From positions 141,737-205,736 of the forward strand of contig NW_004797517.1 in the NCBI RefSeq assembly GCF_000002075.1: a stretch of DNA of 64,000 nt. The letters are read 5' to 3'. A model generated the notes under the pieces. The model did not search any database. It was given only the letters and a program-made list of their open reading frames with translations, and was not told the origin of the DNA. The DNA comes from Aplysia californica. Lineage: Eukaryota. A program made the translations under genes and the position numbers. Of the stretch, positions 15,410 to 63,257 are shown in pieces; within the stretch, counting starts at the first letter, position 1, and each line of letters opens with the position of its first letter.

Positions 15410-15530
15410 TAGATTCTACATCTAGATTCAAGATCTAGATCTAGATCTAGATTTATTAGATTAGATCTAATATCTAGATTCTAGATCTAGATATCTAGAT
15501 CTAGATCTATATTCTAGATATAATATCTAG
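15410..15530. repeat. Degenerate (TAGATC)n palindromic array, continuing at 18095-18132 on the other side of the foldback element
   Basis: Directly visible AGATCTAGATCTAGATCTAG runs. Confidence 0.85.
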
Positions 15531-18094
15531 CGCAGTGGCTATTTTTACGGCGAGCCGTAAAGATAGCCTCCCAGGCTATTTTTACGGCGTGCCGTAAAGA
15601 TAGCCTCCCAGTGAGTCCCAGGCTATTTTTACGGTGATCCTCGAAAAGCGACCCTACTCCGCCTCTCATGTACGCGATATGCCTCTATGTATTAGATCTA
15701 GGCCTATAGGGGCCGTTCAAAATATAAACTTACACCTCAGAGGGGAAAGGGTGTCTTTGGCCTCTGTAAGAAAAGTGTAAGATTGGGTGGGGAGGTTAAC
15801 CAAATATGACACTTCTGTGAGATGTACGTTTTGCTCATGACTGGGAAGAAAAGGTAAAAGAAAAAGTGGATAAATGCCAGTAACAAGACCCAGATCTGCA
15901 TGATCACTGCAGATCCCCGTTGGTTTTTTTGCTTTTTGTTGTTGTTGTTTTTTTAGGGGAGGGGGGGAGTACAAATAATTTTGAAATTATGATGAAAATT
16001 CTGTAGGTGGACATCTAATTTCTTAATGTTTCTTTACAACTTTGCAACTGTTTTGTTGATCTTTTAATGTCTTGATGTCTTTTATTTGTAAGGCACGTAC
16101 CTATTGCATTGACAACAGTCTCAATGTCTTCCACATATATGCGTTTCTTTTTAGTCCATATGGTTTGATTAAATTGTATTAACTGAAATGATATTTTTTT
16201 TTACAAGTTAGTTAAAAAAAGCCACGTATAGTACAGGTATCTTTAAAATAATAATGGAAATTGAAGATCGGAAAAAGTACTAATATTAAATTGGTGTAGG
16301 TGGGGGTTGGAGGCAAATGTGAGAAAAGTGGTATTGGGTTTTGTGTTTTAAAAAGTCCCCAAAAGTGTAAGATTATATTTGAACAGCCCCATAGGTTTTC
16401 CATTTCCTCCTCTTCACCGTCATTCTATTCTCTTCTTCATCTTCCTTCTCCCTTCCTCCACCACCACCTCTTCCTTCTTCTCCCCACCATCATCATTAAC
16501 CCTCTCTTTATCATCACCACCACCATCACCTCCTCGTCACTATCATTACCATCATCACTGCCACTGCCAGCATCATCATCTCATTCACTGACATCACTAC
16601 ATGTACCACACCCACAAGAAGAGCGGCCATTTTGAAGTTAACACTTTTCGCCTTGGGAATGCCTTTAAAATGTTCCTCCTTCCTTATAATTTGCACTGAG
16701 CAGATTTTTGATAGAGGTGTAAAAAAAAAATTTTTTGCGTTCACAATTATTAATTTATTAATTATTGTGATGCAATTTCAGGGTACAGGAACACATATAT
16801 TTTTTTACATTCAAATTTCAAAATTTTGCTCAGTACGATTGACCATAGTATCTGTATCTACCATTCCACCAATTTTCATGCAATTTTGTTAGAGAGTAAG
16901 AAGCCTTCGTTTTTTTTAAATTATTGTTTGTTTTGCATGTTGGTGCTGTTTCCATTCCATGGCAACATTCATATTTTCCGACTTATCAAAATTTACTTTG
17001 TTCATTATTTCTTATGCCAGCATAATTTTTTTTCCTAAATATGAATCGGAAAAAGAATCACCCTTGGGGTGAGCTGTTCCCCGTAAAAAAAAGGACAGTA
17101 ATAATATGAGCACATCAGAAAACAAAACACAAAAACTTTAAAAATGCAATCTATTTTATTATTTCAAAGAATCCCACAACAACAAGGTCCTAGTAAAGAA
17201 CATAAAAACATTGAATTGTTTAAGTCCAGAATAAAGACTATAATTATGATAATACTAATAATAGAGGACATTTGATTATAGTGCCTTACTCTCGGTTTTA
17301 ACCAGCTCAAAGTATGTTACATTAGTTTAGTCATTTAGTAAAATGTAGTATAAAATAACAAATAAGGTAGTAGCCTACAAGGCCTACAAGCCAAGACGGA
17401 ATTTATAAGACTGAAAAACGTGTTCTACGTCATCAGTTTGTGACCGCCGTAAAAAGAACATTTCAGTTAATACAATTTAATCAAACCATATGAACTAGAA
17501 AGAACGCATATATGTGGAAGACATTGAGACTGTTGTCAATGCAATAGGTACGTGCCTTACAAATAAAAGACATCAAGACATTAAAAGATCAACAAAACAG
17601 TTGCAAAGTTACAAAGAAACATTAAGAAATTAGATGTCCACCTACAGAATTTTCATCATAATTTCAAAATTATTTGTAACCCCCCCCCCCCCCCCCCCCC
17701 TAAAAAACAAAAAAACAAAAAAAACAACGGGGATCTGCAGTGATCATGCAGATCTGGGTCTTGTTACTGGCATTTATCCACTTTTTCTTTTACCTTTTCT
17801 TCCCAGTCATGAGCAAAACGTTCATCTCACCTCCCCACCCAATCTTCCACTTTTCTTACAGAAGCCAAAGACATCTTTTCCCCTCTGAGGTGTAAGTTTA
17901 TATTTTGAACGGCCCCTATAGGCCTAGATTCCCAGATCTAGATCTAATACATTGAGGCATGTCGCGTACATGAGAGGCGGAGATGGGTCGCTTTTCGAGG
18001 ATCGCCTTAAAAATAGCCTGGGACTCACTGGGAGGCTGTCTTTATGGCACGCCGTAAAAATAGCATACGGCTCGCCGTAAAAATAGCCACTGCG
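15531..18094. mobile_element. Foldback / Mutator-like (MULE) non-autonomous element with about 650-bp TIRs
   Basis: Arms 15531-16190 and 17459-18094 are near-identical reverse complements (CGCAGTGGCTATTTTTACGGCGAGCCGTA...); exact 9-bp TSD AATATCTAG at 15522-15530 and 18095-18103; palindromic subterminal repeats. Confidence 0.9.
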
Positions 18095-18183
18095 AATATC
18101 TAGATCTACATCTAGATCTAGATCTAGATCTAGAGAGATGAAAACAGGAAAGCATAGGCTATAGTCTGTAGTTAATTACTCAC

Positions 18184-18241
18184 CGATTTGCATCGAAATA
18201 CGAAGCTCATCATTCAGCCATTTGCATAATATATCTGTCAT
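18184..18241 (-). CDS. SPEF2: SPEF2 coding exon 1 (MTDILCKWLNDELRISMQI)
   Basis: ATG at 18241-18239; 58 nt; donor G|GTGAGT; resembles the vertebrate SPEF2 N-terminus (MSEILCQWLN...). Confidence 0.93.
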
Positions 18242-18819
18242 TTTGTCTGACAACTGCAGACTCTTGTATTTACCAACACTGAAACAAAAAAGTTAATACT
18301 CAAAATAAGTTGAACTACTTGTCCGCCATTGCAAAGCTTGCAATTGTTACCATGACCACACCGGAAACAGCCCATGTACTGAAAGCTGCACAAAATGTTA
18401 ATATACTAGGCAACACTTACTAAATGTCTAATATAGTGTGATCCAGCCATCATTCATTCCAGAAGTACCTATAGTATTGGATGAAGCCTTATTGACAAAC
18501 GTTTACACTATAAAGTTAAACATTTACGACTAATAAACAAGGGAGATAACTCTTTAAACTTTTCAAAGTGGAGTGAGTTGCTATGCAACCACACACCCTC
18601 AGCGAGGTCAACGCTTGACCTGAAAGTGGAGAGGGACAGCATAGGGCTTTTGAGGACATTCGGAATAATGTAAACAGTACGGCCACTTTGTCCTGCTGGA
18701 GGTTCTAGTGATCCTTATCAAGCACTCTCGTGAAACACTGAAGAGACTTCCTTGTGTATCTTGATTTTGAAGTGAAGCATCAATCACATAGGCTAGATAT
18801 CTAGAGCGAAATCATCGAA
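18242..18819. promoter_or_regulatory. Bidirectional promoter / 5'UTR region shared by SPEF2 and CIMAP2
   Basis: 578 bp between divergent ATGs. X-box-like GTTACCATGACCAC (18346-18359) and GTTGCTATGCAAC (18577-18589); forkhead-like TAAACA at about 18517, 18534 and 18671; CCGCCATT (18323); CCGGAA (18361). Confidence 0.75.
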
Positions 18820-18869
18820 ATGGCCGAAAAGAAATTCGCTGGTGCCCCCTTTGGGACACAGACAGCAAG
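18820..18869 (+). CDS. CIMAP2: CIMAP2/LEXM coding exon 1 (MAEKKFAGAPFGTQTA)
   Basis: ATG at 18820; GAPFG motif; donor AG|GTAAAA; phase 2. Confidence 0.9.
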
Positions 18870-20759: not shown

Positions 20760-21960
20760 ATTAAAATTACTGTAAGAAAGATTCGGGCAACTTGACTATC
20801 TATTTCCCATCAGCCACTGTCATTTAATGTCAATTGTGCTGCTGTAGGATCAGACAACATTTTCTGCTTCAATAGTTGCTGTATTTGTCTGCTCCCAAAC
20901 ATTCCAAAACCAGGCTTGGAAAATCATTTCAAATGTTCCCACTTAAGCGATTAATTTTTCTGTTCGTTTTTTCAAACCCCCATTTGAACAATTACTGAAC
21001 GGTTTTTGTTCAATCAACTGGTGGTGTCTTTGAGCTGATGTTGTCTGGTCTTGAACTAAATCCAAACAAGCAAAGCACAAAAAGTTTTCAAGTCTTCGGG
21101 CAATGAACCCACCTGCATAAGATACGATATTTTCTAATTGTATAACATGATCCATTTCGCATGATCTTACAATGCTGGCTGCTTGCTTCATTTCATTTGG
21201 CAATGGTATAGCATCTGGAAGGGTCAACGATTGGCTGGTAGGCTGCTGTTTATCGTCGACAGGTTGATGAGGAAACTGTCTGAGTCATCAGAACAATTGC
21301 TGCCTTCACTTGTCAGTGGAATTTTGTCAACCTGCCTTAAAGTAAATCTGAATTGTTGTGGATCAGGATTTGACATCTGGCCATTTTTCCCTCAGATGAC
21401 GGGAAAACAGATTTTCTACACAATCTTGATTGAGGGGAGTGGCCAAGATATATTTGACACTGACAACTATGTTTGTCAAATCATTTACTAATGTCATGAA
21501 AGCATTAATATAGACTAATGTCATGCAAGCATTAATATAGCCTATCCAACCTCTAATGCAGGGAAGATGAACATGTGTTGAACTTTTTGAGGTTCCATAC
21601 TGTAGTTTTCAACCACACTAAGGTGTCATTTAGGAATTTGATATATGAAGATGTAAGGGAGATAGCATGTCTGAATGTAGCAGTGTATTTAGAGTTGGCA
21701 CCACAAGAGTTAAATGTTTCAAAAAGATTGTTAAAAATTGAAACAAAAAACAACAGTTTTTGGCACAGCCTAGCACAAGGCCCTGCGGTTGGCTGAGCAC
21801 ATTTAACGCGCAGACAAATTCAGCCAACGGCCCACCCCTTATACGCTTAGTGCCCTCTACGCCGTAAATCACACATATAGTTACAAGAGTTGCGCATCTT
21901 CTGGTTTCCCTTCTGAAAAGGTTTTTTCATGAATGCCATTTAACCTTCTGTTCCATTTCC
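20760..21960 (-). mobile_element. P-element/THAP9-like transposase fossil
   Basis: Minus-strand motifs FVSIFNNLFETFNS, SQDCVENLF..I*GKNG..SNPDPQQF and IVSYAGGFIARRL...CFAC...GGLKK; many frameshifts; element ends not resolved. Confidence 0.75.
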
Positions 21961-22753
21961 TGCCTTTCAAACCAAATTTGAACTGCTCCTAATTGAATTT
22001 AAGTTCTTTATTCTGCTCTGCAAAGTATTTTTTCGAGTTTAAAATAAGTAAACTGCAAGTTTTGTTTCCAAGTGATTGAGCACTATTGTTTACTTAATTT
22101 CAATTTGTTCCCAAAGTAAACTAAACTTTAACACATTACAGCCTAACTTGCCCGGGAATTCCTTTACGCGCTCCACCCTGACTTGCCCGGAACCGCCCGC
22201 TCCGACCTAGCGTCTTTAGAAACGAAGTTTCGCCTTGACGAGACTCTGGGGCCGAGATTTTGATTTGCATAGCTATTGCAAAAAGTTTCTTCTTTCGTTT
22301 GATACCGAAACGAAATTTTTCGGGCCAGTAGTTTTAGTATTATTAGAGCCGAACGAAGTGCGATTGCGTTACCGACACTTCGTAGGTGTCTCGACTTGTT
22401 GAAAGGCGACACAAATGAGTTCGAAAAAGGAAATAACGATGGATTTGAGCAAAAACAAGCATTATGACAAATAAGATGACTCAGATTTTGATGAAAACGT
22501 TGTAGCAAGAGTTTGGGGCGATTCAGATTGATCAGACGCAGAAAATCTAGAATTTAGATCAAGGGCCCGACAGCGAGGCTGAGAGTAAGAGCGATGGGTC
22601 GGACACCCCGATTGAACTAAACTTAGAACGTTTCCAACAGTTTGCGCATACGTAAAGTTATATTTTTCTGAAACTACATTCATTTTTCGTTTTAACTATT
22701 ATTTTTTCTGGATTTTTTAAATGTGTTTAGTATTTTTAAAATGTGTTTTTTAA

Positions 22754-23796
22754 CTCATTCGCTACGCTGAGCCGTGGGGGGCGGTGCGGCTCAAGTGCCG
22801 TCAGTACGCTAAGCCGCTCCCGGCTGCTCGAGAACCGACGTTCAATTTTAGCTTGGTTTATAATTCCAATCCACATATCCATGTTAAAATAAAGGTCATA
22901 ATATAATGTTGACTTCCGGGTCAAGCGTTTCCACCCTAAATCTGAAGTTTTGATTCAGTTTTGAAACATGATTTCGTAGTTTATTCGACTTTGTTTTATC
23001 GCGAAGCCCAAATTTTAGCCAAGACACCAGTCTTAGTACTTTTACATAACAAAATGTATCATTATTTTGCTCACTAAAGAAGTGTAGGACTCTTTTTTAT
23101 AATATTGATACTATTGGACGCAAATTGCCGGTGCACTGTAATTGAGAAATCAATATTTTTGAGTGCTAGATCTAGGCCTAGATCTAAATAGTCAAAATAT
23201 TTTTTTCTCCCCAAAATCACTTCTTTTGGGTGAAATTAATCAAAAAGTACCACTCAAGACATGTATATAGGTTTATTCCATATGCAATTCTGAATAATTC
23301 CATGTAAGTTACTCGTATTTTTTTCTGTTTGTGATCCTTTTTTCAAAATTATTTTTCAAAATTTTTTTTTTTCAATATCGGATGTTATGATCCAAATGTA
23401 CAAATGTTATGGAATGTATGTAAATAACTGCACATCTTTCAATATTTTCCTGTTCTATATACAGTTATGGTTATTTTGAGGTATCGTTTGACTAGGTGCA
23501 AACATATTTTTTTAGCTTCACCTGAGATTATAAATTTTTTATTTTCCAATTTTATCCGCATCCAATCACAATTGTGTTGCATAATCGCCTCTTACAGGAA
23601 CCAAAGTTGAAAAATACGCAAATAAATAATGCAGATGTATTCTACAAACCATACTGAAAATGTTGGTATATAATATGTTGATATTTATTTGAATTTATGG
23701 CCCCAAAGACCTGTGAACTGCGCACTGGTCATCATCTCATTTCGCCCTCCCGAAAAGAATTCGTCCACAAGCCGAAAATAATACGTAGCGAATGAA
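22754..23796 (-). mobile_element. About 1.04-kb TTAA-flanked (piggyBac-like) MITE, family A, copy 1 (opposite orientation to copies 2 and 3)
   Basis: TTAA-CTCATTCGCTACG ... CGTAGCGAATGAA-TTAA; alignable over its full length to 38202-39244 and 43192-44243. Confidence 0.88.
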
Positions 23797-24041
23797 TTAA
23801 AGGCTTGTATTCACGGGAGGTGGGTTACTTCACCTTGCTTAGGATTTAGGAATGGACTTCCCGTCCAGACCCTTAGGGTGTAATGTGTTAAAATCTGTTT
23901 TCTCAAAACTTCACCTTTGGACCCCTGTGCACTTAAAAATACCATACCTTTTCACAGAATGCTCCAATTTCACTCAAATAAAGTGCAAAATGCTTGGGAA
24001 AGGTGTGCCTCTCAAAGCATGCAAAAAAGTCAATTTTTTAA

Positions 24042-25528: not shown

Positions 25529-26348
25529 GGATCCCTGTAGTCATGCTGGACGAAATGTACAATTAGGGAAAGTAAAAATAAAATTGCTTCCAAAAAGGAT
25601 ACTTCAAAGAAATCTCATGGAGACCAAATCTTGATTCCAAATGAAAGAGTATTAAATCAAAGTGGAGCACTTGAACGTTTGTTTACAATCATATCTCTGG
25701 CCATCACACGCTAACACAGCAGGGTCGCGCCCACGTCTCACGCGGACGCAAGATAGGGCAATGGAAACATCTTGGTAGTAGAGAATTTTTGGATCCTACA
25801 GCTGAATCTGATTGAGTTTTGAAGGACGTTTCATTACTTTATTTCAAATTGCATGCATAATTATGTTCCGATTCTCACATTTTCAAATTTAGATGTTCAA
25901 TAGAAATGAAAATCTTTTGTCAAATATGTTTTTTGGGGATTGAATTGAACTTGTTGAGGTGACATTCAAGGCCTAAAATGTGTTACTGCAATCAGTTAGT
26001 TATTATGATAAATGCTAAATAATTTTCTATTTATAAAAGTATGACCCAAAAAGAAAACAGGAAATATTTCCTTAAAAGTAGGATCCAAAAAGGGAACACA
26101 AAGTGCATGTGAAAGATCAAAGTACAGGGAGGATTAAGGACACTATTGACTTCTGTTTTACAATGATAAGGGGATATTTCATGTAAACACATAACATACA
26201 CAAGTGCATAAAAGCGATCTGGTTAATTGGTTTGGATCACTGTTTTATAAGATTTCTGGTGAGTGTGAAATGCACTTTCGCACCTCAAACAAAGGTAAAA
26301 GTACTATAGATGTATGCTCTGTCGAATTTTTGCCTCTCAAAAATAATA

Positions 26349-27175
26349 CTGTGGAGTCCACTTATAACGAGTCCTGAAATAACGAGAAGTCTGTTATAAA
26401 GACACTTTTCTAAAACCCCGTTTTTCTCCCTCTTTATCTTTGTAAATAAAATACTGCTATAGCGCAATCAGACAAATATGCGAGTCGGTCATAGCGGAAT
26501 ATTGTTGCTTCTGTGCACAGCGCATAGGCCAATTATACATATATGTAAAGCCTCGCCAGTTGAAATACATGTTGGTGATCTAGCGAAACAAAGAATGGGA
26601 GAGCTCACATGTGCCAACAATGAAGGCCGGAGCGAATATGTCGGGAGGGTATGGCATGTGCAGACAAGCAAAACGCATCGCGTGATAGGCCAACCTAGTC
26701 TAGATTATCTAGGCCTACCGTGCCTCTCACTTCTCCAATGCGGGGATGGAGAGGGCACAGTGTTGCGATGGATGGAGCGAATGTGTGACATTGTCAGGGT
26801 GTTGTGTGTACCCATGTGTGCAAGCAGACGGAATGCACCACAGGGTGTGATGGTGGTTGGGGGAGGGGGGGGGCAACACAGCAGGTGAGTTAGCCTAGAG
26901 CCCTTTCTTTCTGATCGCTAACGCCGAGCTGTCAACATCACTAGCACTAGAGAAAGAGACCTGATTTGATTTTTGATCAAGTAAGACTAGAGGTCATGTT
27001 GAACAAAATCATCCTTAGGGGGGATAACGAAAAGAAATAAACCCAACACCAAACTCATAGATTTGGCCTACTTTATTTACTTTGAATTTATTACTGGATC
27101 CCTTATAACAAGAATCCTGCTATAATGGATATTTTGCACCAGTCCCCTCCCTCTCGTTATAACAGGATTCCACTG
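26349..27175. mobile_element. pogo/Tigger-type MITE (TA TSD)
   Basis: TA-CTGTGGAGTCCACTTATAACGAG ... CTCGTTATAACAGGATTCCACTG-TA; related to 6236-6838. Confidence 0.8.
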
Positions 27176-27213
27176 TATTTAACATGTAAAAATATTCCAA
27201 AGTCACCCCTCTT

Positions 27214-35358: not shown

Positions 35359-35702
35359 TCTAATGTGATGGTGAAATATGTCATTATTTTATCATTCCCA
35401 TTCTAATGTGATGGTGAAATATGTCAGTATTTTATCATTCCCCTTCTAATGTGATGGTGAAATATGTCATTATTTTATCATTCCCCTTCTAATGTGATGG
35501 TGAAATATGTCATTATTTTATCATTCCCATTCTAATGTGATTGTGAAATATGTCATTATTTTATCATTCCCATTCTAATGTGATGGTGAAATATGTCAGT
35601 ATTTTATCATTCCCCTTCTAATGTGATGGTGAAATATGTCATTATTTTATCATTCCCATTCTAATGTGATGGTGAAATATGTCATTAATTTATCATTCCC
35701 AT
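35359..35702. repeat. Minisatellite, 8 x 43 bp
   Basis: Unit TCTAATGTGATGGTGAAATATGTCATTATTTTATCATTCCCAT, head-to-tail with few variants and no spacers. Confidence 0.95.
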
Positions 35703-38100: not shown

Positions 38101-38201
38101 TCTCTCGTGACCGCAAGTGGTAAAGTTACTCTATCATCATAAAAATAATAAGTTTCTACTACAATTGAGGCTAGATTTAAAAAATGTTCTTCATAAATTA
38201 A

Positions 38202-39244
38202 CTCATTCGCTACGTATTATTTTCGGCTTGTGGACGAATTTTTTTTCTGGAGGGCGAATGAGATGATGACTAGTGGGCACTTAAAAGGTCTTTGTGGCCA
38301 CAAATTCAAATAAATATCAACGTATTATATACCAATATTTTCAGTATGGTTTGTAGAATACATCTGTAATGTTTATTTATGTATTTTTCAACTTTGGTTC
38401 CTGTAAGAGGCGATTATGCAACACAATTTTGATTGGATGCGGATAAAATTTGAAAATAAAAAATTAATAATCTTTGCTGAAACTCAAAAAATATATTTGC
38501 ACCTAGTCAAGTGATGCATCAAAATAACCAAAAATGAATATATAGAACTGGAAAATATTGAAAAGTTTGCAGTTATTTACCTACATTCCATAATTTTTGT
38601 ACATTTTGAACACAACATCCGATATTGAAAAAAAAATAAAAAATTGTATAATCTTGAAAAATGATCACAAACAGAATAAACCCACTCGTATCTAATATGG
38701 AATTATTCAGAATTGCATTTGGAATAACCTATACATGTCTTGAGAGGCACTTTTTGTGTAATTTCATCAAAAGCAGTGATTTTAGGGAGAAAAAACATAT
38801 TTTGACAATTTAGATCTAGACCTAAATCTAGCACTCAAAAATATTGATTTCTCAATAACAGTGCATTGGCAATATGAGTCCATTCGTATCAATATTATAA
38901 AAAAGAGTCCTACATTTCTTTAGTGGGCAAAATAAGGATAGATTTTGTTGTGTAAAATTACTAAGACTGGTGTCCGGGCTATAATTTTGGCATCGCGATA
39001 AAACAAGGTCGAATAAACTACGAAATCGCATTTCAAAACTGATTCTAAATTTCCGATTTTCAGTGGAAATGCTTGACCCGGAAGTCAACATTATATTATG
39101 ACCTTTATTTTAACATGGATATGTGGATTGGAATAGAATCTAAGCTAAAATTGAAGATTGGTTCTCGGGCCGCCGGGGGCGGCTTAGCATACTGACAGCA
39201 CTTGACCCGCGCCGCCCCCCCCACGGCTCGGCGTAGCGAATGAG
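38202..39244 (+). mobile_element. piggyBac-like MITE family A, copy 2
   Basis: TTAA-CTCATTCGCTACG...CGTAGCGAATGAG-TTTA. Confidence 0.88.
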
Positions 39245-39984
39245 TTTAAAAAAGGCATAAATCTCTGTCACATAGAAAATAGATTATTGTTCACAGCACT
39301 TCCAACTTCCCATACACATTTTGCATACGCATTATATATGGTCTACATCACAGCCCACCACTTTTTAGTGTCAAAACTTGATACAAGAAATCAATTTTAT
39401 ATAATGAACACATTTTTTGCACTAAAGACTCTCAAAACATGCATTCAATAAGCACAGTATCACGATTTTTTTTTAAATGACGGATTTGCTTTTAAAAGCG
39501 ATATTGCCCCAGCTGCAAACCTTTTGAAATATGTAGAAACCACCCACTTGGACTTTTTATTAGTATTTATGAAGGAATTTTCTAGAATATGGCTGACAAA
39601 TGTATACAAAAATATTGATCTGTAAAAACAAATTGATCCAAGCCATTGTGCACAAGCTGGAGAGTCTATGTTCGACAGTAAAGGAAATATTTGACAATAA
39701 GTTGCGCCATAAATTTTTTATTGCACTATACATAGCCTACTTATTATCATCGTATCAGACAAATATAATGTTTTGTTCTGATGGTTTTAGGATTACATTA
39801 AAATTTTGTATATTGTAATTGTAATCATGAACTATCTACACTGCCTTTATGACCAGTTTTTTGTCCCTACGACTAAATAGTTAATTTTTTGCTTTTTGTT
39901 TCTTTCTTTTAAATGTGTTTTGTGCCCTTTCGATTCAATCTAAATCATTTAGATCATTTTGGAGGTGGACTTTGACCCTGTCTG

Positions 39985-43158: not shown

Positions 43159-43191
43159 GTCAGTAAAGAGCCGCATAGAGTTGTTCTTTAA

Positions 43192-44243
43192 CTTATTCGC
43201 TACGTATTATCTTGGGCTTGTGGATGATTTTTTCTCGGGAGGGTGAAATGAGATGATGACTAGTGCGCAGTTCAAAGGTCTTTGAGGCACAAATTCAAAT
43301 AAATATCAACATATTATACACTCCAATTTTCAGTATGATTTGTAGAATATGCCTACATCTGTAATGTTTATTTGAGTATTTTTCAACTTTGGTTCCTGTA
43401 AGAGGCGATGCAACACAATTTTGCTTGGATGCAGATAAAATTGAAAAAAAAAAAATTAATCATCTTTGGTGAAACTCAAAAAATATGTTTGCACCTAGTC
43501 AAATGATAGTCCTACATCAAAATAACCATAAATGAACATAAAACTGAAAAATATTTTAAAATTTGCAGTTATTTAACATTCCACATAATTTGTACTTTTG
43601 GATCATAACATCCGATATTGAAAAAAAATATTTTTATGAACTTGAAAAAAGGACAAGATGCATTCACAAACAGAAAAAACCACACATATATCTTATTTGG
43701 AATTATTCAGAATTGCATTTAGAATAAACCTACACATGTCTTAAGTGGTACATTCTGTTATTTTCACACACAAAAATAGTGATATTGGGGAGAAAAAATG
43801 TTTTGACAATAAAGATTTAGCTTTGAAAAATATTGATTTCTCAATAACAGAGCAGTGCCAATTTGAGTCCATTTTACAAATATAGTATCAATATTCTAAA
43901 GAAGAGTCCTACTTTTCTTTAGTAATCAAAATAATGATACATTTTTTTGTGTGAAAGTACTAAGACTGGTGTCTGGGCTATAATTTTGGCATCGCGATAA
44001 AACAAAGTCACATAAACTTCGAAAACTGAATCAAAATTTACGATTGTTGGTGGAAACGCTTGACCCGGTAGTCAACGTTATATTATAACCTTTATTTTAA
44101 CATGTAATGGATATATATATGGGTTAGAATAAAGTCTAAGCTAAAATTATAGGTCACTTCTCGAGCTGTCGAGGGCGGTTTGCTGTAGTAAAGTCACTTT
44201 GGCAGCGCCAGGCCGCTGCCCACGGCTTGGGGTAGCGAATTAG
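43192..44243 (+). mobile_element. piggyBac-like MITE family A, copy 3 (more diverged)
   Basis: TTAA-CTTATTCGCTACG...GGTAGCGAATTAG-TTAA; starts 33 bp after the exon 7 donor. Confidence 0.85.
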
Positions 44244-44442
44244 TTAAAGTATTGCATGTTGGTACAAAAACAGTGGGACCCACCGTAACCGTGTTACATT
44301 TAAGATTCTTATCCCCTGGTTTGATGTTCTACTTCAAATTTAAACTGACACTTGCTTAAATTACATTTGCAGTTTCAAACCTCTATTTTTTTGTTGAACT
44401 ATAAGTATTGAAATCGATTTGTTTGAATTTACTTGAAAAATA

Positions 44443-55855: not shown

Positions 55856-57347
55856 CAGCATTACCTATTACGTTAGATCTAGGCTCTTTGAATTCTAGCC
55901 TACTACTACTGATTCTAGAGGGAATGTAGATTTAACTATCATCTGCACTATTCAAAAACCAAATATCTATGGCAAAATAAAAACAAAACTGTGAATTCTT
56001 TTGTCAGTCAGTACATCCCGCTAGTGTTAATAGCTGAATAATGCAATGGCAAATTGACACGTAAAAATCGCAGTGTGCAGGGGGAGAGTGGGGGCGCTCG
56101 GTCGCTGACCGGTCAATTTGGCTTTTGTATGCATTTTTACAAAAAGCCCTGTTAGCGTTGTGAAAACTTCAACCTATACAGCTTAGGCGCCAAAAGATGC
56201 TGGAATGAATAATACTTCTTGAAGTTTCATAATTTATATGTAATCCTCCTGGTCAAAACCAGTCATATAAAGGAAATTTCAAAATGTTGTTAACATAATT
56301 TCCCAAAACTAGCACCATTTCACTACAACTGGGAAAAAAAAAGAAATCAATAAGACAATATTTGACGAAAATATGGAACTTTTAAGTATACAAGGTGCAG
56401 AAACAATAATTATAGGAGAAAACGGGCTCCAAAATTGATCAACATGTTTCCATAGCAACGGGGGTCTTAGAATAGAGATAGAGATTTGAAATATGTCAGT
56501 TATCGTGGCTAGGCCACTACAACTTAACATTCAGAAAAAAAAGCTTATGGACAAAACAAAATTTAACTAGAATGGTCTTCACGTCAAATGCAACAACGGG
56601 TTAACATTGTAGGCCCTACTAGATCTAGCTACCAGAAACTAAATTTTCAAAGTAGCTATATATGTCAAATTTATCTGTTTCATATGAAAGGCCCGTGTCT
56701 CTTGTGCATTTTGTTATGATTGAGAAGTTATATATACACTTCAGACAAAACTGTGCTATTTGAGAAAGGTGCACCATTTCGAAAGCAGAACGAACTCAGT
56801 TTCGTGAAAAGGGTAGTTTGAGCATATGTGGCCTAAATAAGGTTCCATGGGGGGATAAACCTTATTCTGGCCATATGTGGCCTAAATAGGGGGGGGGGGA
56901 TGTTAACCTTAATCTGACCATATGTGGTAGATGTACATTGTATGCATCAAATTAAAGATAAAGAAAAGTTCTTTTGCATGAAATTAGAATTAATCAGAAC
57001 AAATGTTAAAGAAGTGTATCTCCAGGGTCTTCAAAATACCCATACATGATACAAAAAACCTGGCGAATATGACAATCAATTTGCACCAAAAAAAATCGCC
57101 TATCATTGATAGTTACACATTATAATTACATGTATATGCGTCAAATTAAAGAGAAAGCAAATGTCTATTAGGCCTACATAATATTAAGAAGAGCAGACTA
57201 AACATCAATGCATTCGCCTTTCTAGTCTTCAAAATAACCATCGTATTTCAAACAAAAGTTGGACCTATATTCCTCCATCTTAAATCATTTTTACAAATAT
57301 ATGCACAATTTTGAGGTGCAAGATAGCCTTCATATGGTCGCTTTTAA

Positions 57348-60099: not shown

Positions 60100-62833
60100 G
60101 CCCGTAACTGTACGGGGGGAGGGGGGATATGAAATCGGGCTGCTGGAGTAAGGTGGCACATGCAGCAGGACCTTCAGCTGTTGAAACAACGGATTTTGAC
60201 CAAGTGGACGGAAGTAGTGGATTGGCAGCTGCTGCTGATCTATCAGCAGGTGAAGCAACTGAACTTGGCGAGGTGGACAAAAGCGGTGAATTAGTTGCTG
60301 GACAATCATCTGGTGAAATGAGAGAAATTAAACCAACAAGAGAAAGGAAAGCTTTGGCCCTGACTAGCACAGAACAGACTGCACATACTGAACTTGAAGC
60401 CACAGGAAGTGAAGATTTCAGGATTTACTACTTTAAGAAACCATTCTCAGAAGAAGAAAGGTTGTTGTTTTGGAATCACCATCCATGTCAGTAGACTGAT
60501 AATCGAGTTGTGCAAAGATGTTTCATTCCTGAAGACGGTTCTAACAGATGGTCGCCGTCTTACGACAAAGATTCCCATGCACTTCACTGTCTGTCTGCGT
60601 GATTTCTGCCACTTCAGACACACCTGCATTCCTTGAGGGGATGAAAGACTTGCGGCATGTATACTTTCTCGTATTGAATAGCATGAACGTTCGTCTTTAC
60701 TTCTGCAATGTTCTGCATTTCTCACGTGTAGGCGAAGGGCTACTGCGACGAAGTCAGAAAGAAACGGCAAGTGATGAATCGAGTTGTGGGCGTAGTTAAA
60801 CTCAGGCAAAAGGGGACTAAGCCACAGAGGAAGTACGGAAGAGGCAGCCTACACTTTGGACAATGCAGAAATTGACCATGGTACTTTCCTGGAAACTGTT
60901 AAGTTGCAACACAAATACATGTATGATTCATGCACAGCTGATCACCTCTCTCGCGTAGTCCATAGCGGCAAGACACAAAAATTAGCAGGCAAACAGTTCG
61001 AAAGGCAGAGGCTCATTTGATACTTTTTTGTCCAAAACTACTGTGAACTCTATCATTACGGTTATTCGGGATAAGATCCGTTGCTTCATTTCGGAAAAAA
61101 TAACAGACATGTTTGCAGTGGAAATTGACACAACACAGGACATAGTAACTCAGGGCCAGTGCTCCATTGTCGTTCGATATGTGGATAAAATTGGCAACAT
61201 CCAAGAAAGACTTGTGAGTATTGTGAAGTGCGAAGAAAATACCGGCGGTGCTTTTGTGCAGATTGTTTCGGAAGTTATGCCAGGGTTGAATCTTGACCTC
61301 AAAACAATGCGTTGGGAATGCAACTGACGGGGCAGCAAACATGCAGGGACACTGTAGAGGTTTCAGTACTCTGCTTTCAAACAAAGCTCCACTGCAGATC
61401 CATGTTTGGTGCCACGATCATGTGTTGAATCTTGTTGTTTCGGAGGCCACAAGTGCTGTAGTGAACAGTGCATCGCTATTAATTTTGATGAACGACTTTG
61501 CAGTGTGCTTTCGGGAGTCTTATCAGCGGATGAACATCAGAATCTGGAGCAGACACTCGACAACTATGAAGCGTTTAGGAACCATTGATGCTGCCTTGAG
61601 GGAGGCGGAGGAGGGAGGTGTTTGAATTTTTCAACAATCCATCCGAAGCTCTGTTTGTTGAAGTGATCACCAGCTTCAGCGCTATACTTGTTGCTGACAA
61701 CACCCAAACAGCCGTTAAAGCTAAAGTAAGAGGATACATTGATGCTCTACTCAAGTTTGGAACAGTTCTCACCGTGCAAGTGTACCTCCTTTTCTAACCT
61801 AAGTATCTGCAAACCTTGCAATTGGACCTTTTGACTGTATACAAGACGGTGGCGGAGTTGCTGTCAAACACGCATGCCCTCAAGGCGGACTTCGAAGCTT
61901 CTCAAAATGCAGCTGCAAAAGTTTGTTCAGTGGGTGAATGATGCGCTGGAGGAGAGCGGGTCAGATTCGTTCGTGGAAGAGTCGCTTCCCTTGAAACGGC
62001 AAAGACGAAGCAGACGAATGGATGATGAATTCTGTACAGATGAAGCTACACCAACAGCAGACCCAATGAAGAAATATCGTGTTGAAGTGTACAATCGAAT
62101 TGTAGACACCCTTGTTAACAGCATTGAACAAAGATTAAAAGGATCTGCAGCGCCTATATTGTTTGCTGACCTGTCAATTCTTCATCCAAGAGACTTTGGT
62201 GAAGTCCCATCAGAGGCTGGAAGAGCTGCAAAAGTATTTGCAGAGATTTGACGATAACGTCACCGCTGAAGGGTTGCGAACAGAATTGCAAAGCCTTGGA
62301 GAACAAAGGAATCACCGAAGCAGTCAGTTGCAGACCACTATGAGGTGAATGACAGCGATATTGACTGTGAATCAGAACTGAGCACACAAAATGTTTCAAG
62401 TTTCTCTGTTACATGTAGTCCTATCTCGTGCAAAGCTTACCCTCTCTGCTGTTACAAGGTGCTACATGTACTCAACTTGAACCTCTTCACCGATGCTTAG
62501 GCATTGGGGTTGCTTATTACAAGCTACTGCCAACCCTGCTTGTGTCGAAGGTTGTATGCGAACGGTCGTTTTCTGCCCTGAAGAGAATCAAAACCAGTCT
62601 CCGAAGCACAATGACACCAGAACATCTTGAGGCATTTATGCTAATGCAATTGGAAAAGGAGATCTTGACCAAACTGGACAATGAAGACATCATTGCTGCT
62701 GTGGCCGCCAAAAGCAAAGAACTTCGTAGGCATCTACTCTCTTGAGTACATGTATACTCTGGGCTGAGTTCTTGTGCTAATATTGATTTGGTTGTACGAC
62801 ATGTATGTTGTATATCACAAAGTTGCTTATTTA

Positions 62834-62887
<54 letters not shown>

Positions 62888-63257
62888 CACGCACATACAC
62901 AAACACACACACACAAACATTCCTACCTACCTACCTAACCACCTACACACGAACATACATACGTATACACATACACACATACGTAGGCTACATACGTACA
63001 TATACATTATATAGGGCCTACATGTACATACATAGGCCTACATATATGACATACATACATAACGAACACTCACACGCACACACACATATGCACACATTCA
63101 AACACACACAATTTTCATCTGCTTCTGTGCTCTAACTAGTAACATAATGATAGTATGCAGGCTTAGAAACATGTTGGCTTTGCGTGTTTTACTAGGCCTT
63201 AGTGGGCCGGTACGGGTGGCAAATGCCCGGGCCGGTTTTAAGACCCAGTCCGCCCGT
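60100..63257 (+). mobile_element. Decayed hAT (Tip100/ZMYM1-like, DUF4371 plus hATC) transposon; transposase pseudogene about 60129-62745
   Basis: Motifs DHGTFLE, FAVEIDTTQD..QCSIVVRYV, TDGAANMQG, HVWCHDHVLNLV and CERSFSALKRIKTSLRSTM across frameshifted ORFs; right end ...CCCAGTCCGCCC resembles Tip100 TIRs; left TIR not found. Confidence 0.9.
62835..63110. repeat. (CA)n and degenerate TACA-rich simple repeat
   Basis: Directly visible. Confidence 0.95.

What the first reader, a model, noticed from the sequence alone, without database searches (positions are those of the whole stretch)
23167..23186. Mixed-core footprint arrays as a possible natural record of repeated transposon visits
Seen: TA-GATC-TA-GGCC-TA-GATC-TA (23167-23186), TA-GATC-TA-GGCC-TA (15693-15706), TA-CATG-TA-GTCC-TA (62410-62423), GGCC-TA-CATG-TA (about 63015-63026), and long (TAGATC)n runs at 15410-15530 and 18095-18132, close to the SPEF2 start. 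Simple slippage does not mix different 4-nt cores in a fixed 6-bp register. Inference: successive insertion and excision cycles at one TA each add 6 bp and leave the ends of the visiting family. Arrays would then mark hotspots, possibly germline-open chromatin. This predicts a TA-targeting element with GA...TC termini, which I do not see in this window.
Basis: inference. Interest (0 to 1): 0.7.

Follow-up and report, generated by a model that had tools for sequence, protein, structure and literature searches.

The report
Transposon exit scars at TA sites
This animal's genome is full of six-letter additions that turn TA into TAGATCTA, TAGGCCTA or TACATGTA, likely scars left when jumping genes cut themselves out, but the flagged chain of scars was carried to this spot inside another jumping gene rather than built here.

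Summary
The arrays are real, but the flagship (23167-23186) does not record visits to this locus. It lies inside a TTAA-bounded MITE: 29 of 29 other copies carry it, and other alleles lack the whole element. The 15693 pair is likewise cargo of a foldback element.

The underlying process is real. TAGATCTA, TAGGCCTA and TACATGTA are 18-, 14- and 6-fold enriched. Of 33 polarised non-tandem 6-bp insertions in paralogous repeats, 12 are exactly TA to TA-GATC/GGCC/CATG-TA. One hAT relic in the window holds 4 such insertions against 1 in 19 sister copies, so hotspots depend on place.

Candidate donors exist for two cores: TA|CAGT families (CATG) and a young ~1-kb MITE with TA|GG ends (677 end matches; 90 of 100 listed at TA), whose G-TA preference partly matches the GGCC scars. 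No GA...TC donor was found. GATC scars favour C-TA-G, a site they themselves create, so arrays may feed themselves; slippage also contributes.

Best reading: Tc1/mariner-type excision footprints on a genome-wide scale. The scan reported the same idea before in this genome and others; the GG-ended family, the core-specific target preferences and the cargo result were not in the notes I saw.

The parts
23167..23186 (.). Three-unit array TA-GATC-TA-GGCC-TA-GATC-TA, inherited from the MITE master copy
   Evidence: 29 of 29 other copies carry it (22 exact, 7 with one substitution)
22754..23796 (.). piggyBac-like MITE with TTAA duplication (22750-22753, 23797-23800); a polymorphic insertion that carries the flagged array
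   Evidence: 732 first-look candidates; joint 22749->23797 skipping the element in all 4 runs laid
15531..18094 (.). Foldback (MULE-like) element with long inverted arms and a 9-bp target duplication (15522-15530, 18095-18103), inserted into one (TAGATC)n run
   Evidence: inverted arms; 288 candidates; same terminus with unrelated flanks in the sister loci; duplication
15693..15706 (.). GATC-GGCC pair inside the foldback arm (mirror image at about 17919-17946); cargo
   Evidence: exact pair in at least one arm of 28 of 29 sister loci
15410..15530 (.). Left part of the degenerate (TAGATC)n field in intron 1 of the SPEF2-like gene, with GATC, GATTC and GATATC units
18095..18134 (.). Right part of the same field, about 50 bp into intron 1 of the SPEF2-like gene
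18183..18241 (-). First coding exon of the SPEF2-like gene (ATG at 18241); a divergent gene starts at about 18820 on +
60750..62800 (+). Decayed hAT transposase relic acting as a local scar hotspot: private +6 units at 60916 (CATG), 62416 (GTCC), 62463 (CATG) and 62747 (CATG)
   Evidence: DUF4371 and hAT dimerisation matches; 4 such units here against 1 in 19 sister copies
62410..62423 (.). TACATGTA (ancestral hAT sequence) plus one new TA-GTCC-TA unit
   Evidence: TACATGTA in 13 of 18 displayed sister copies, the GTCC unit in none
43188..44247 (-). Old (78.5%) copy of the flagship MITE family: one decayed unit at the array site and two private +6 units (43348 TGCC, 43507 GTCC)
38198..39246 (-). 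Intermediate (87.6%) copy of the flagship MITE family with GATT-GGTC-GATC at the array site
56610..56716 (+). TA-GGCCC-TA and TA-GATC-TA units next to a decayed left end (from 56628) of the TA|GGTA MITE family, here inside a composite repeat
   Evidence: both units absent from the matching stretch of L279, compared by eye

Best explanation
The TA-GATC/GGCC/CATG-TA units arise as six-base insertions at plain TA sites and are likely excision footprints of several TA-targeting cut-and-paste transposon families, while the flagged 23167 array was delivered here as cargo of a TTAA MITE. Shown: +6 insertions with only the TA duplicated; a different flank preference for each core; place-dependent hotspots; resident TA|CAGT and TA|GGTA element families; cargo status of the 23167 and 15693 arrays. 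Inferred: an element inserts at TA (duplicating it), is later cut out about 2 nt inside each end, and end-joining keeps both stubs (XY plus its reverse complement), giving a palindromic 4-nt core. Inferred: GATC scars put C before and G after a TA, which is the C-TA-G site their own donor favours, so they would attract re-insertion and, together with slippage, grow into (TAGATC)n fields. GGCC scars favour G-TA-C, which they do not create, so they seldom form pure runs. Mixed neighbours are likely independent events in a hotspot, not a special liking for the same TA. The GA...TC donor is predicted but was not found.
For:: of 33 polarised non-tandem 6-bp insertions in paralogue alignments, 24 are TA-anchored; 12 have exact cores (7 GATC, 3 GGCC, 2 CATG; p about 1e-17 against 3/256) and 7 more are one substitution away; at one TA of a high-copy repeat, 3 GATC, 1 GGCC and 2 near-cores among 100 listed of 107. 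GATC units sit in C-TA-G 4.3x and GGCC units in G-TA-C 4.7x, while control cores are nearly flat; a ~990-bp MITE, about 97% identical copies, 677 end matches (control 37); 90 of 100 listed ends follow TA; the base before TA is G in 44 of 90, like GGCC scars (77 of 186 half-sites, p=0.25) and unlike GATC scars (53 of 288, p=3e-8); several TA|CAGT families; 4 units in the window's hAT copy against 1 in 19 sister copies of similar divergence (p=4e-5; 6e-4 without the flagged unit). GATC follows GATC at 60 of 441, against a local rate of 3.35%; GGCC follows GGCC at 4 of 209. Literature passages: TACATGTA as a Tc1 footprint (PMC3520976), staggered cuts and NHEJ footprints (PMC7827188), re-insertion at an old footprint TA (PMC1925063).
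Against: No GA...TC family with TA duplication was found in about 1.9 Mb held, although GATC is the commonest core. Abundant Tc1 families end TA|AACT, yet TAAATTTA is not enriched (0.8x), so not every TA family leaves a 2+2 scar. The GG MITE matches GGCC scars in the G preference but not in T versus A before the TA (28:8 against 26:53, p=8e-6), so at best it is one of several donors; its transposase is unknown. No allele was seen in which an element is replaced by a scar. Mixed adjacency is not above local density (5 of 441 and 5 of 209, p about 0.2). Pure GATC runs also grow by tandem duplication (e.g. L041:1847). The middle GGCC of the flagship could be a substitution product, because older subfamilies have GGTC or GATC there and parsimony does not decide. 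14 of the 33 insertions are of other kinds.
Confidence: 0.7

Rival explanations
1. Slippage plus point mutation (with hairpin correction of near-palindromes) builds the arrays: pure (TAGATC)n runs expand by slippage and a middle unit drifts GATC -> GGTC -> GGCC.
For: Tandem duplications of GATC units are seen. In the flagship family the middle unit is GATC, GGTC or GGCC in different subfamilies, and an ancestral GGTC costs no more changes than an ancestral GGCC. So this may hold for the flagship array itself and for long pure runs.
Against: It cannot make a first unit at a lone TA (12 exact polarised cases). Next to GATC, GGCC makes up 5 of 13 two-substitution neighbours out of 54 possible. 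Among the first 100 of 2410 genome matches, GGCC (21) outnumbers its own intermediate GGTC (14) and AGTC (5); GGTT (48) is inflated by a repeat and the list was not dereplicated (hand count).
Confidence: 0.12
2. A host enzyme or repair pathway, not a resident transposon, writes fixed palindromic 4-mers into breaks at TA in accessible chromatin, for example templated end-joining or a domesticated nuclease. The GATC class in particular may have no transposon donor.
For: The GA...TC donor is missing. At one repeat site about half of the +6 insertions are TTAA or ATAT, which can be read as inverted copies of the local ATAA, so flank-templated +6 events do occur. Tc1 ends do not predict an enriched core.
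Against: GATC, GGCC and CATG cores appear in unrelated flanks and are not copies of them. Each core has its own flank preference. Two of the three cores have resident TA families with the right ends.
Confidence: 0.13
3. The words are selected protein-binding or nucleosome-positioning motifs near promoters.
For: GATC units cluster (variance 5.35 against mean 1.45 per 10 kb) in sequence with higher CpG o/e (0.78 against 0.625), and one field lies by a bidirectional promoter. Unexplained 6-mers mark hypomethylated linkers in fish (PMC5607494, results section part 2).
Against: Units arise as private insertions inside dead transposon copies, even inside a dead hAT reading frame, where selection is unlikely. 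Several rare control cores also had CpG o/e of 0.73-0.77 on small counts. Selection might retain units but does not explain their origin.
Confidence: 0.05

Closest known systems
Tc1 excision footprint TACATGTA in C. elegans (as quoted in PMC3520976, passage; the primary paper PMC363199 was not held) and Sleeping Beauty footprints (PMC7827188, passages)
   Same: TA duplicated around a few bases matching transposon tips; the CATG class is the same string; TA|CAGT families are resident here.
   Different: Described there as rare or experimental. Here about 200 (GATC), 95 (GGCC) and 110 (CATG) per Mb, with GG..CC and GA..TC cores; the SB footprint is 3 nt, not 4.
Stowaway footprints and repeated insertion at one TA in Triticeae (PMC1925063, passages)
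   Same: Footprints with 1-4 bp of terminal sequence inside the TA duplication, and a new element inserted at the TA of an older footprint.
   Different: One plant intron followed on a phylogeny. Here a genome-wide animal case, several cores with different target preferences, and scars passed on as cargo of other transposons.
ISL2EU (PHIS superfamily; PMC4482050, passages)
   Same: Resident young family whose junctions read ATAGA at both ends, which mimics TA|GA.
   Different: The junction fits the published A|AT|T target with AT duplication; a scar would add 8 bases in an A..T context, and that context is depleted around TAGATCTA (0.58x). Rejected as donor.
Teleost hypomethylated-domain linker 6-mers (PMC5607494; abstract and results part 2)
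   Same: Short unexplained words enriched in promoter-proximal accessible DNA.
   Different: Different words (top 6-mer GCTAAC), interpreted there as nucleosome-positioning signals. No link to transposons in the part I read; any link is my inference.

Membership tests
Excision footprint of a TA-targeting (Tc1/mariner/pogo-type) transposon | Insertion relative to an empty site, with only the TA duplicated | tested here: met
   12 exact and 7 near-core cases among 33 polarised non-tandem 6-bp insertions; more
Excision footprint of a TA-targeting (Tc1/mariner/pogo-type) transposon | Inserted core equals the two inverted tips (XY + reverse complement) | tested here: met
   apart from TA-rich microsatellite words, the strongly enriched cores are palindromes: GATC, GGCC, CATG, CCGG
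Excision footprint of a TA-targeting (Tc1/mariner/pogo-type) transposon | Resident donor with CA...TG ends and TA duplication | tested here: met
   several TA|CAGT...ACTG|TA families
Excision footprint of a TA-targeting (Tc1/mariner/pogo-type) transposon | Resident donor with GG...CC ends and TA duplication | tested here: met
   L243:341-1181 family; 677 end matches, 90 of 100 listed at TA, paired ends share only TA; no empty allele seen
Excision footprint of a TA-targeting (Tc1/mariner/pogo-type) transposon | Resident donor with GA...TC ends and TA duplication | tested here: inconclusive
   none in about 1.9 Mb held (0.2% of the genome) nor among the ISL2EU and Tc1 loci fetched
Excision footprint of a TA-targeting (Tc1/mariner/pogo-type) transposon | Scar flanks match the donor's target preference | tested here: inconclusive
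   GG MITE matches GGCC scars in G before TA but not in T versus A
Excision footprint of a TA-targeting (Tc1/mariner/pogo-type) transposon | Donor mobilised by an IS630-Tc1-mariner DDE/D transposase | not tested
Excision footprint of a TA-targeting (Tc1/mariner/pogo-type) transposon | Element-bearing and scar alleles at the same TA | tested here: inconclusive
   two read-laying runs (22, 87) showed no such pair
ISL2EU as donor | Scar at an A|AT|T target with AT duplication | tested here: not met
   events are +6 at TA, and A..T flanks are depleted
piggyBac-like MITE (host of the flagged array) | TTAA duplication, terminal inverted repeats, empty allele with a single TTAA | tested here: met
piggyBac-like MITE (host of the flagged array) | Matching piggyBac transposase | not tested
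   a TTAA-targeting Kolobok partner is not excluded; the label rests on TTAA and CTC ends (recalled)
Slippage microsatellite | New unit is a copy of its neighbour | tested here: not met
   not met for lone and mixed units; met for some units in pure GATC runs

The most novel reading that the evidence does not exclude
Gastropod (TAGATC)n fields are autocatalytic transposon scars: a still unknown GA-ended, TA-targeting family prefers C-TA-G, its own footprint creates that site, and repeated visits write a microsatellite into germline-accessible DNA. About 0.6% of TA sites carry such scars, so scar density and core type would be a sequence-only, family-resolved map of past germline transposition and open chromatin in animals without epigenomic data.
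Probability: 0.3. Interest if true: 0.75.

Novelty: new variant of a known kind. Interest (0 to 1): 0.5.

Why it matters
Excision normally leaves no countable trace, so cut-and-paste activity is judged only from copies that stayed. Here three 8-mers stand at 95-200 per Mb and, where paralogues allow a check, arose by insertion. If they are footprints, past excision in this genome is countable by family, its hotspots can be mapped from sequence alone, and one common mollusc microsatellite has a mechanistic origin. It also warns motif-finders that such palindromes near promoters need not be transcription-factor sites, and that arrays inside transposons are cargo that inflates counts.

Tried and rejected
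Donor candidates rejected:
- L103 GGCC-ended element: hAT-like, 8-bp duplication.
- L060 TA-GATC...GATC-TA: two inverted copies of a retro-element-like tail; homology runs past the 'ends'.
- L140 TA-GG...CC-TA: inner part of a longer foldback.
- ISL2EU: AT duplication.
- Tc1/DDE_3 loci: TA|AACT-type ends in most of the 30 loci, no ends called in 8, none GA or GG.
- Kolobok-like PF20700 transposases: 114 matches; only the one held copy was read, at one end, where it shows TTAA. The others were not examined.
- pogo (DDE_1) and mariner (Transposase_1) families were not searched.

Allele test for 6-bp steps: inconclusive. In one search two single-copy contigs (X5 record 12, X6 record 20) each carry 6 more letters than the reference stretch, but the letters were not displayed. 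One search was dominated by repeats. An empty-site search for one GG MITE copy among held loci found nothing. The tree of the flagship family did not fix the ancestral middle unit. CpG o/e as a proxy for open chromatin was suggestive for GATC only, and control cores on small counts were similar. Flanks of full GG MITE copies beyond 7 letters were not read, so its target logo and the duplication length rest and the held copies.

Paper searches found no paper describing genome-wide TAGATCTA/TAGGCCTA scars; the library lacks most subscription papers and Repbase entries, and I opened no supplements.

Full report
OBSERVATION. The window lies in a 927-Mb animal genome; earlier notes of the scan call it a gastropod, which I did not test. 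In 80 arbitrarily placed 10-kb pieces (653 kb without N) TAGATCTA, TAGGCCTA, TACATGTA and TACCGGTA are 17.6, 14.4, 6.3 and 3.7 times a third-order Markov expectation. TATA (13.1) is the TA microsatellite and the other 11 palindromic cores are 0.7-1.6 times. In 134 pieces (1.10 Mb) the densities are 201, 95 and 110 per Mb; the window has about twice the GATC and GGCC densities. Longer relatives are also enriched: GAATC/GATTC 7.8x, GGCCC/GGGCC 5.8x, and GGC/GCC 2.4x.

THE FLAGSHIP IS CARGO. 23167-23186 lies inside a 1.04-kb element with inverted ends and TTAA on both sides. All 29 other nearest copies carry the same three units, 22 exactly and 7 with one substitution. All four runs laid on the region show a joint 22749->23797 that removes the whole element and leaves one TTAA. 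So the array arrived ready-made in a recent insertion. Of the 207 genome places of the 20-mer, 11 of the first 15 are this family and 2 belong to an otherwise unrelated TTAA family that shares only 26 bp around the array. Older subfamilies have one unit, GATT-GGTC-GATC, or four units. A tree with the array masked does not decide whether the middle GGCC was inserted or derived from GGTC. The 15693 pair sits in the arm of a 2.56-kb foldback element and is exact in at least one arm of 28 of 29 sister loci. That element has a 9-bp target duplication and splits one (TAGATC)n field, which begins about 50 bp inside intron 1 of the SPEF2-like gene (ATG 18241, minus strand; a divergent gene starts near 18820). 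At 62410 the CATG unit is ancestral hAT sequence (13 of 18 displayed copies) and only GTCC-TA is new (0 of 18).

THE PROCESS IS REAL. I used paralogous repeats as empty-site controls (all held loci, searched and arbitrary, plus the window; the selected site of the ten loci was left out). Of 33 non-tandem 6-bp insertions that most paralogues lack, 24 are anchored on TA. Twelve have an exact core (7 GATC, 3 GGCC, 2 CATG), 7 are one substitution away, and 14 of the 33 are of other kinds (p about 1e-17 for 12 of 24 against 3/256). At one TA of a high-copy repeat, 100 of 107 genome matches were listed: 3 GATC, 1 GGCC, 2 near-cores, about half TTAA or ATAT (28 and 22 by hand count), and local duplications. 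The window's hAT relic holds four private units in 2.0 kb, against one in 19 sister copies of similar divergence (35 kb; p=4e-5, or 6e-4 without the flagged unit). The window was flagged for richness, so this is not a blind sample, but it shows that place, not sequence, sets the rate. That hotspot is 42 kb from the promoter noted above.

MIXED ARRAYS. After a GATC unit, the next in-register unit is GATC at 60 of 441 and GGCC at 5 of 441; GGCC is 5 of the 13 two-substitution neighbours among 54 possible. Among the first 100 of 2410 genome matches to a pattern allowing transitions, GGCC (21) exceeds its intermediate GGTC (14) and AGTC (5); GGTT (48) comes largely from a repeat and the list could not be dereplicated (hand count). 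Point mutation alone therefore fails. But mixed adjacency is no higher than the local unit density predicts (p=0.19 and 0.21), whereas GATC-GATC is (p=8e-20). Mixed arrays look like independent events in dense patches; pure GATC runs need an extra cause.

TARGET PREFERENCE. With array neighbours removed, GATC units sit in C-TA-G (4.3x), GGCC units in G-TA-C (4.7x) and CATG units in A/C-TA-C or ATAT (1.7-2.0x); eight control cores are nearly flat. The G after GATC units may partly reflect decayed neighbours, but the seven polarised GATC events also show C before or G after the TA at 7 of 14 half-sites (read; background 18%). A GATC or GGCC unit puts G after its left TA and C before its right TA. 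Inference: the GATC donor's scar rebuilds its own preferred site and the GGCC donor's does not, which would explain why only GATC forms long fields. Slippage, which is seen directly, would add to this.

DONORS. CATG: several TA|CAGT...ACTG|TA families are resident. GGCC: a boundary scan found a family that strict inverted-repeat searches miss because its ends match at only about 9 of 12 bases. It is about 990 bp, about 97% identical between top copies, with 1205 first-look candidates. A pattern for both ends gives 677 matches (control 37). Of the first 100 listed, 90 follow TA; paired ends about 1 kb apart share only the TA; the base before the TA is G 44, T 28, C 10, A 8 (hand count). The G preference agrees with GGCC scars (p=0.25 for a difference) and not with GATC scars (p=3e-8), but the T:A ratio differs from GGCC scars (p=8e-6), so other GG-ended families must contribute. 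Its superfamily is not determined. GATC: no donor in about 1.9 Mb held; four look-alikes (two GA-type, two GG-type) were rejected (see Tried and rejected). Against a simple rule, abundant Tc1 copies end TA|AACT but TAAATTTA is not enriched.

MECHANISM AND ODDS. Most likely (0.7): insertion at TA with duplication, later excision with cuts about 2 nt inside each end, and end-joining that keeps both stubs. Staggered cutting inside the ends and NHEJ footprints are established for Sleeping Beauty (PMC7827188, passages), TACATGTA is quoted as a Tc1 footprint (PMC3520976, passage; primary paper not held), and re-insertion at an old footprint TA is described for Stowaway (PMC1925063, passages). Shown here are the insertions, preferences, hotspots and two donor classes. 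Inferred are the excision step itself, the self-feeding loop and any link to germline chromatin. Rivals: slippage with mutation (0.12; may hold for the flagship's middle unit and long runs), a host break-repair process (0.13), selected motifs (0.05).

WHAT IS KNOWN. The mechanism is textbook; the scale, the GG and GA cores and the cargo effect were not found in seven paper searches, which cover open papers only; no supplements were opened. Other papers seen as passages only: PMC4482050, PMC9179366, PMC9587614, PMC10045372, PMC8533490, PMC10379824, PMC7325037; PMC5607494 as abstract and results part 2. The scan's own notes reached the same footprint reading earlier in this genome (e1-9569281, e1-9516597) and in others (e1-9396010, e1-7548102, e1-7577530); two of them say that the donor was not found. 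They are not independent evidence.

VERDICT. Observation confirmed; interpretation partly supported. The flagged array is inherited cargo, but it belongs to a real, genome-wide class of likely excision footprints, with a newly identified candidate donor for GGCC and a missing one for GATC. New variant of a known kind; interest 0.5.

Noticed in passing
L243:341-1181 (G000:C83:1360929-1361769); decayed left end at window 56628-56716: Young ~990-bp MITE family with TA duplication, GGTA ends that match only imperfectly, several hundred copies; superfamily undetermined. Older copies sit inside a composite repeat (L277, L279, L296).
   Followed up: partly
repeat site (e.g. L179, L182-L185): At one TAA of a high-copy repeat about half of the +6 insertions are TTAA or ATAT, found in different subfamilies. 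They can be read as an ATAA duplication with an inverted 3-base filler, a hairpin-type scar that is not enriched genome-wide.
   Followed up: partly
L191 (G000:C1092), L192, L193, L194: Near-identical (99.7%) ISL2EU copies with long open frames and AGA ends at AATT targets; possibly recently active. Their non-coding parts are rich in (TAGATC)n.
   Followed up: partly
G000: 114 matches to PF20700 (Kolobok-like transposases); about ten of the top 15 have stop-free frames of 500-800 aa and appear to be different low-copy families.
   Followed up: no
window 22129-23890: A second TTAA-bounded element with inverted ends encloses the flagship MITE; a joint 22676->23849 is seen in three runs.
   Followed up: no
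window 26343-27196: An 852-bp segment is skipped in contigs of three runs: a probable polymorphic insertion.
   Followed up: no
window 18241-18820: Head-to-head genes about 580 bp apart; the plus-strand gene starts MAEKKFAGAPFGTQTAR (LEXM/CIMAP2-like, recalled) and has TA-GGC-TA-GATATC-TA at 18789-18803 just before its ATG.
   Followed up: no
window 20943-21284 (-): Fragment resembling the C-terminus of a P-element/THAP9 transposase (recalled); no Pfam match at E 0.01.
   Followed up: no
L111:873-1970 and L123 versus window 22750-23800: Two otherwise unrelated TTAA MITE families share an identical 26-bp stretch containing the same three-unit array; capture or convergence is not resolved.
   Followed up: partly
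L147-L175 flanks: The foldback family often inserts into other inverted-repeat elements or into (TAGATC)n fields (L146, L167, L175), suggesting shared insertion hotspots.
   Followed up: no
window 35359-35702: 43-bp minisatellite, 8 copies, 96% matches.
   Followed up: no
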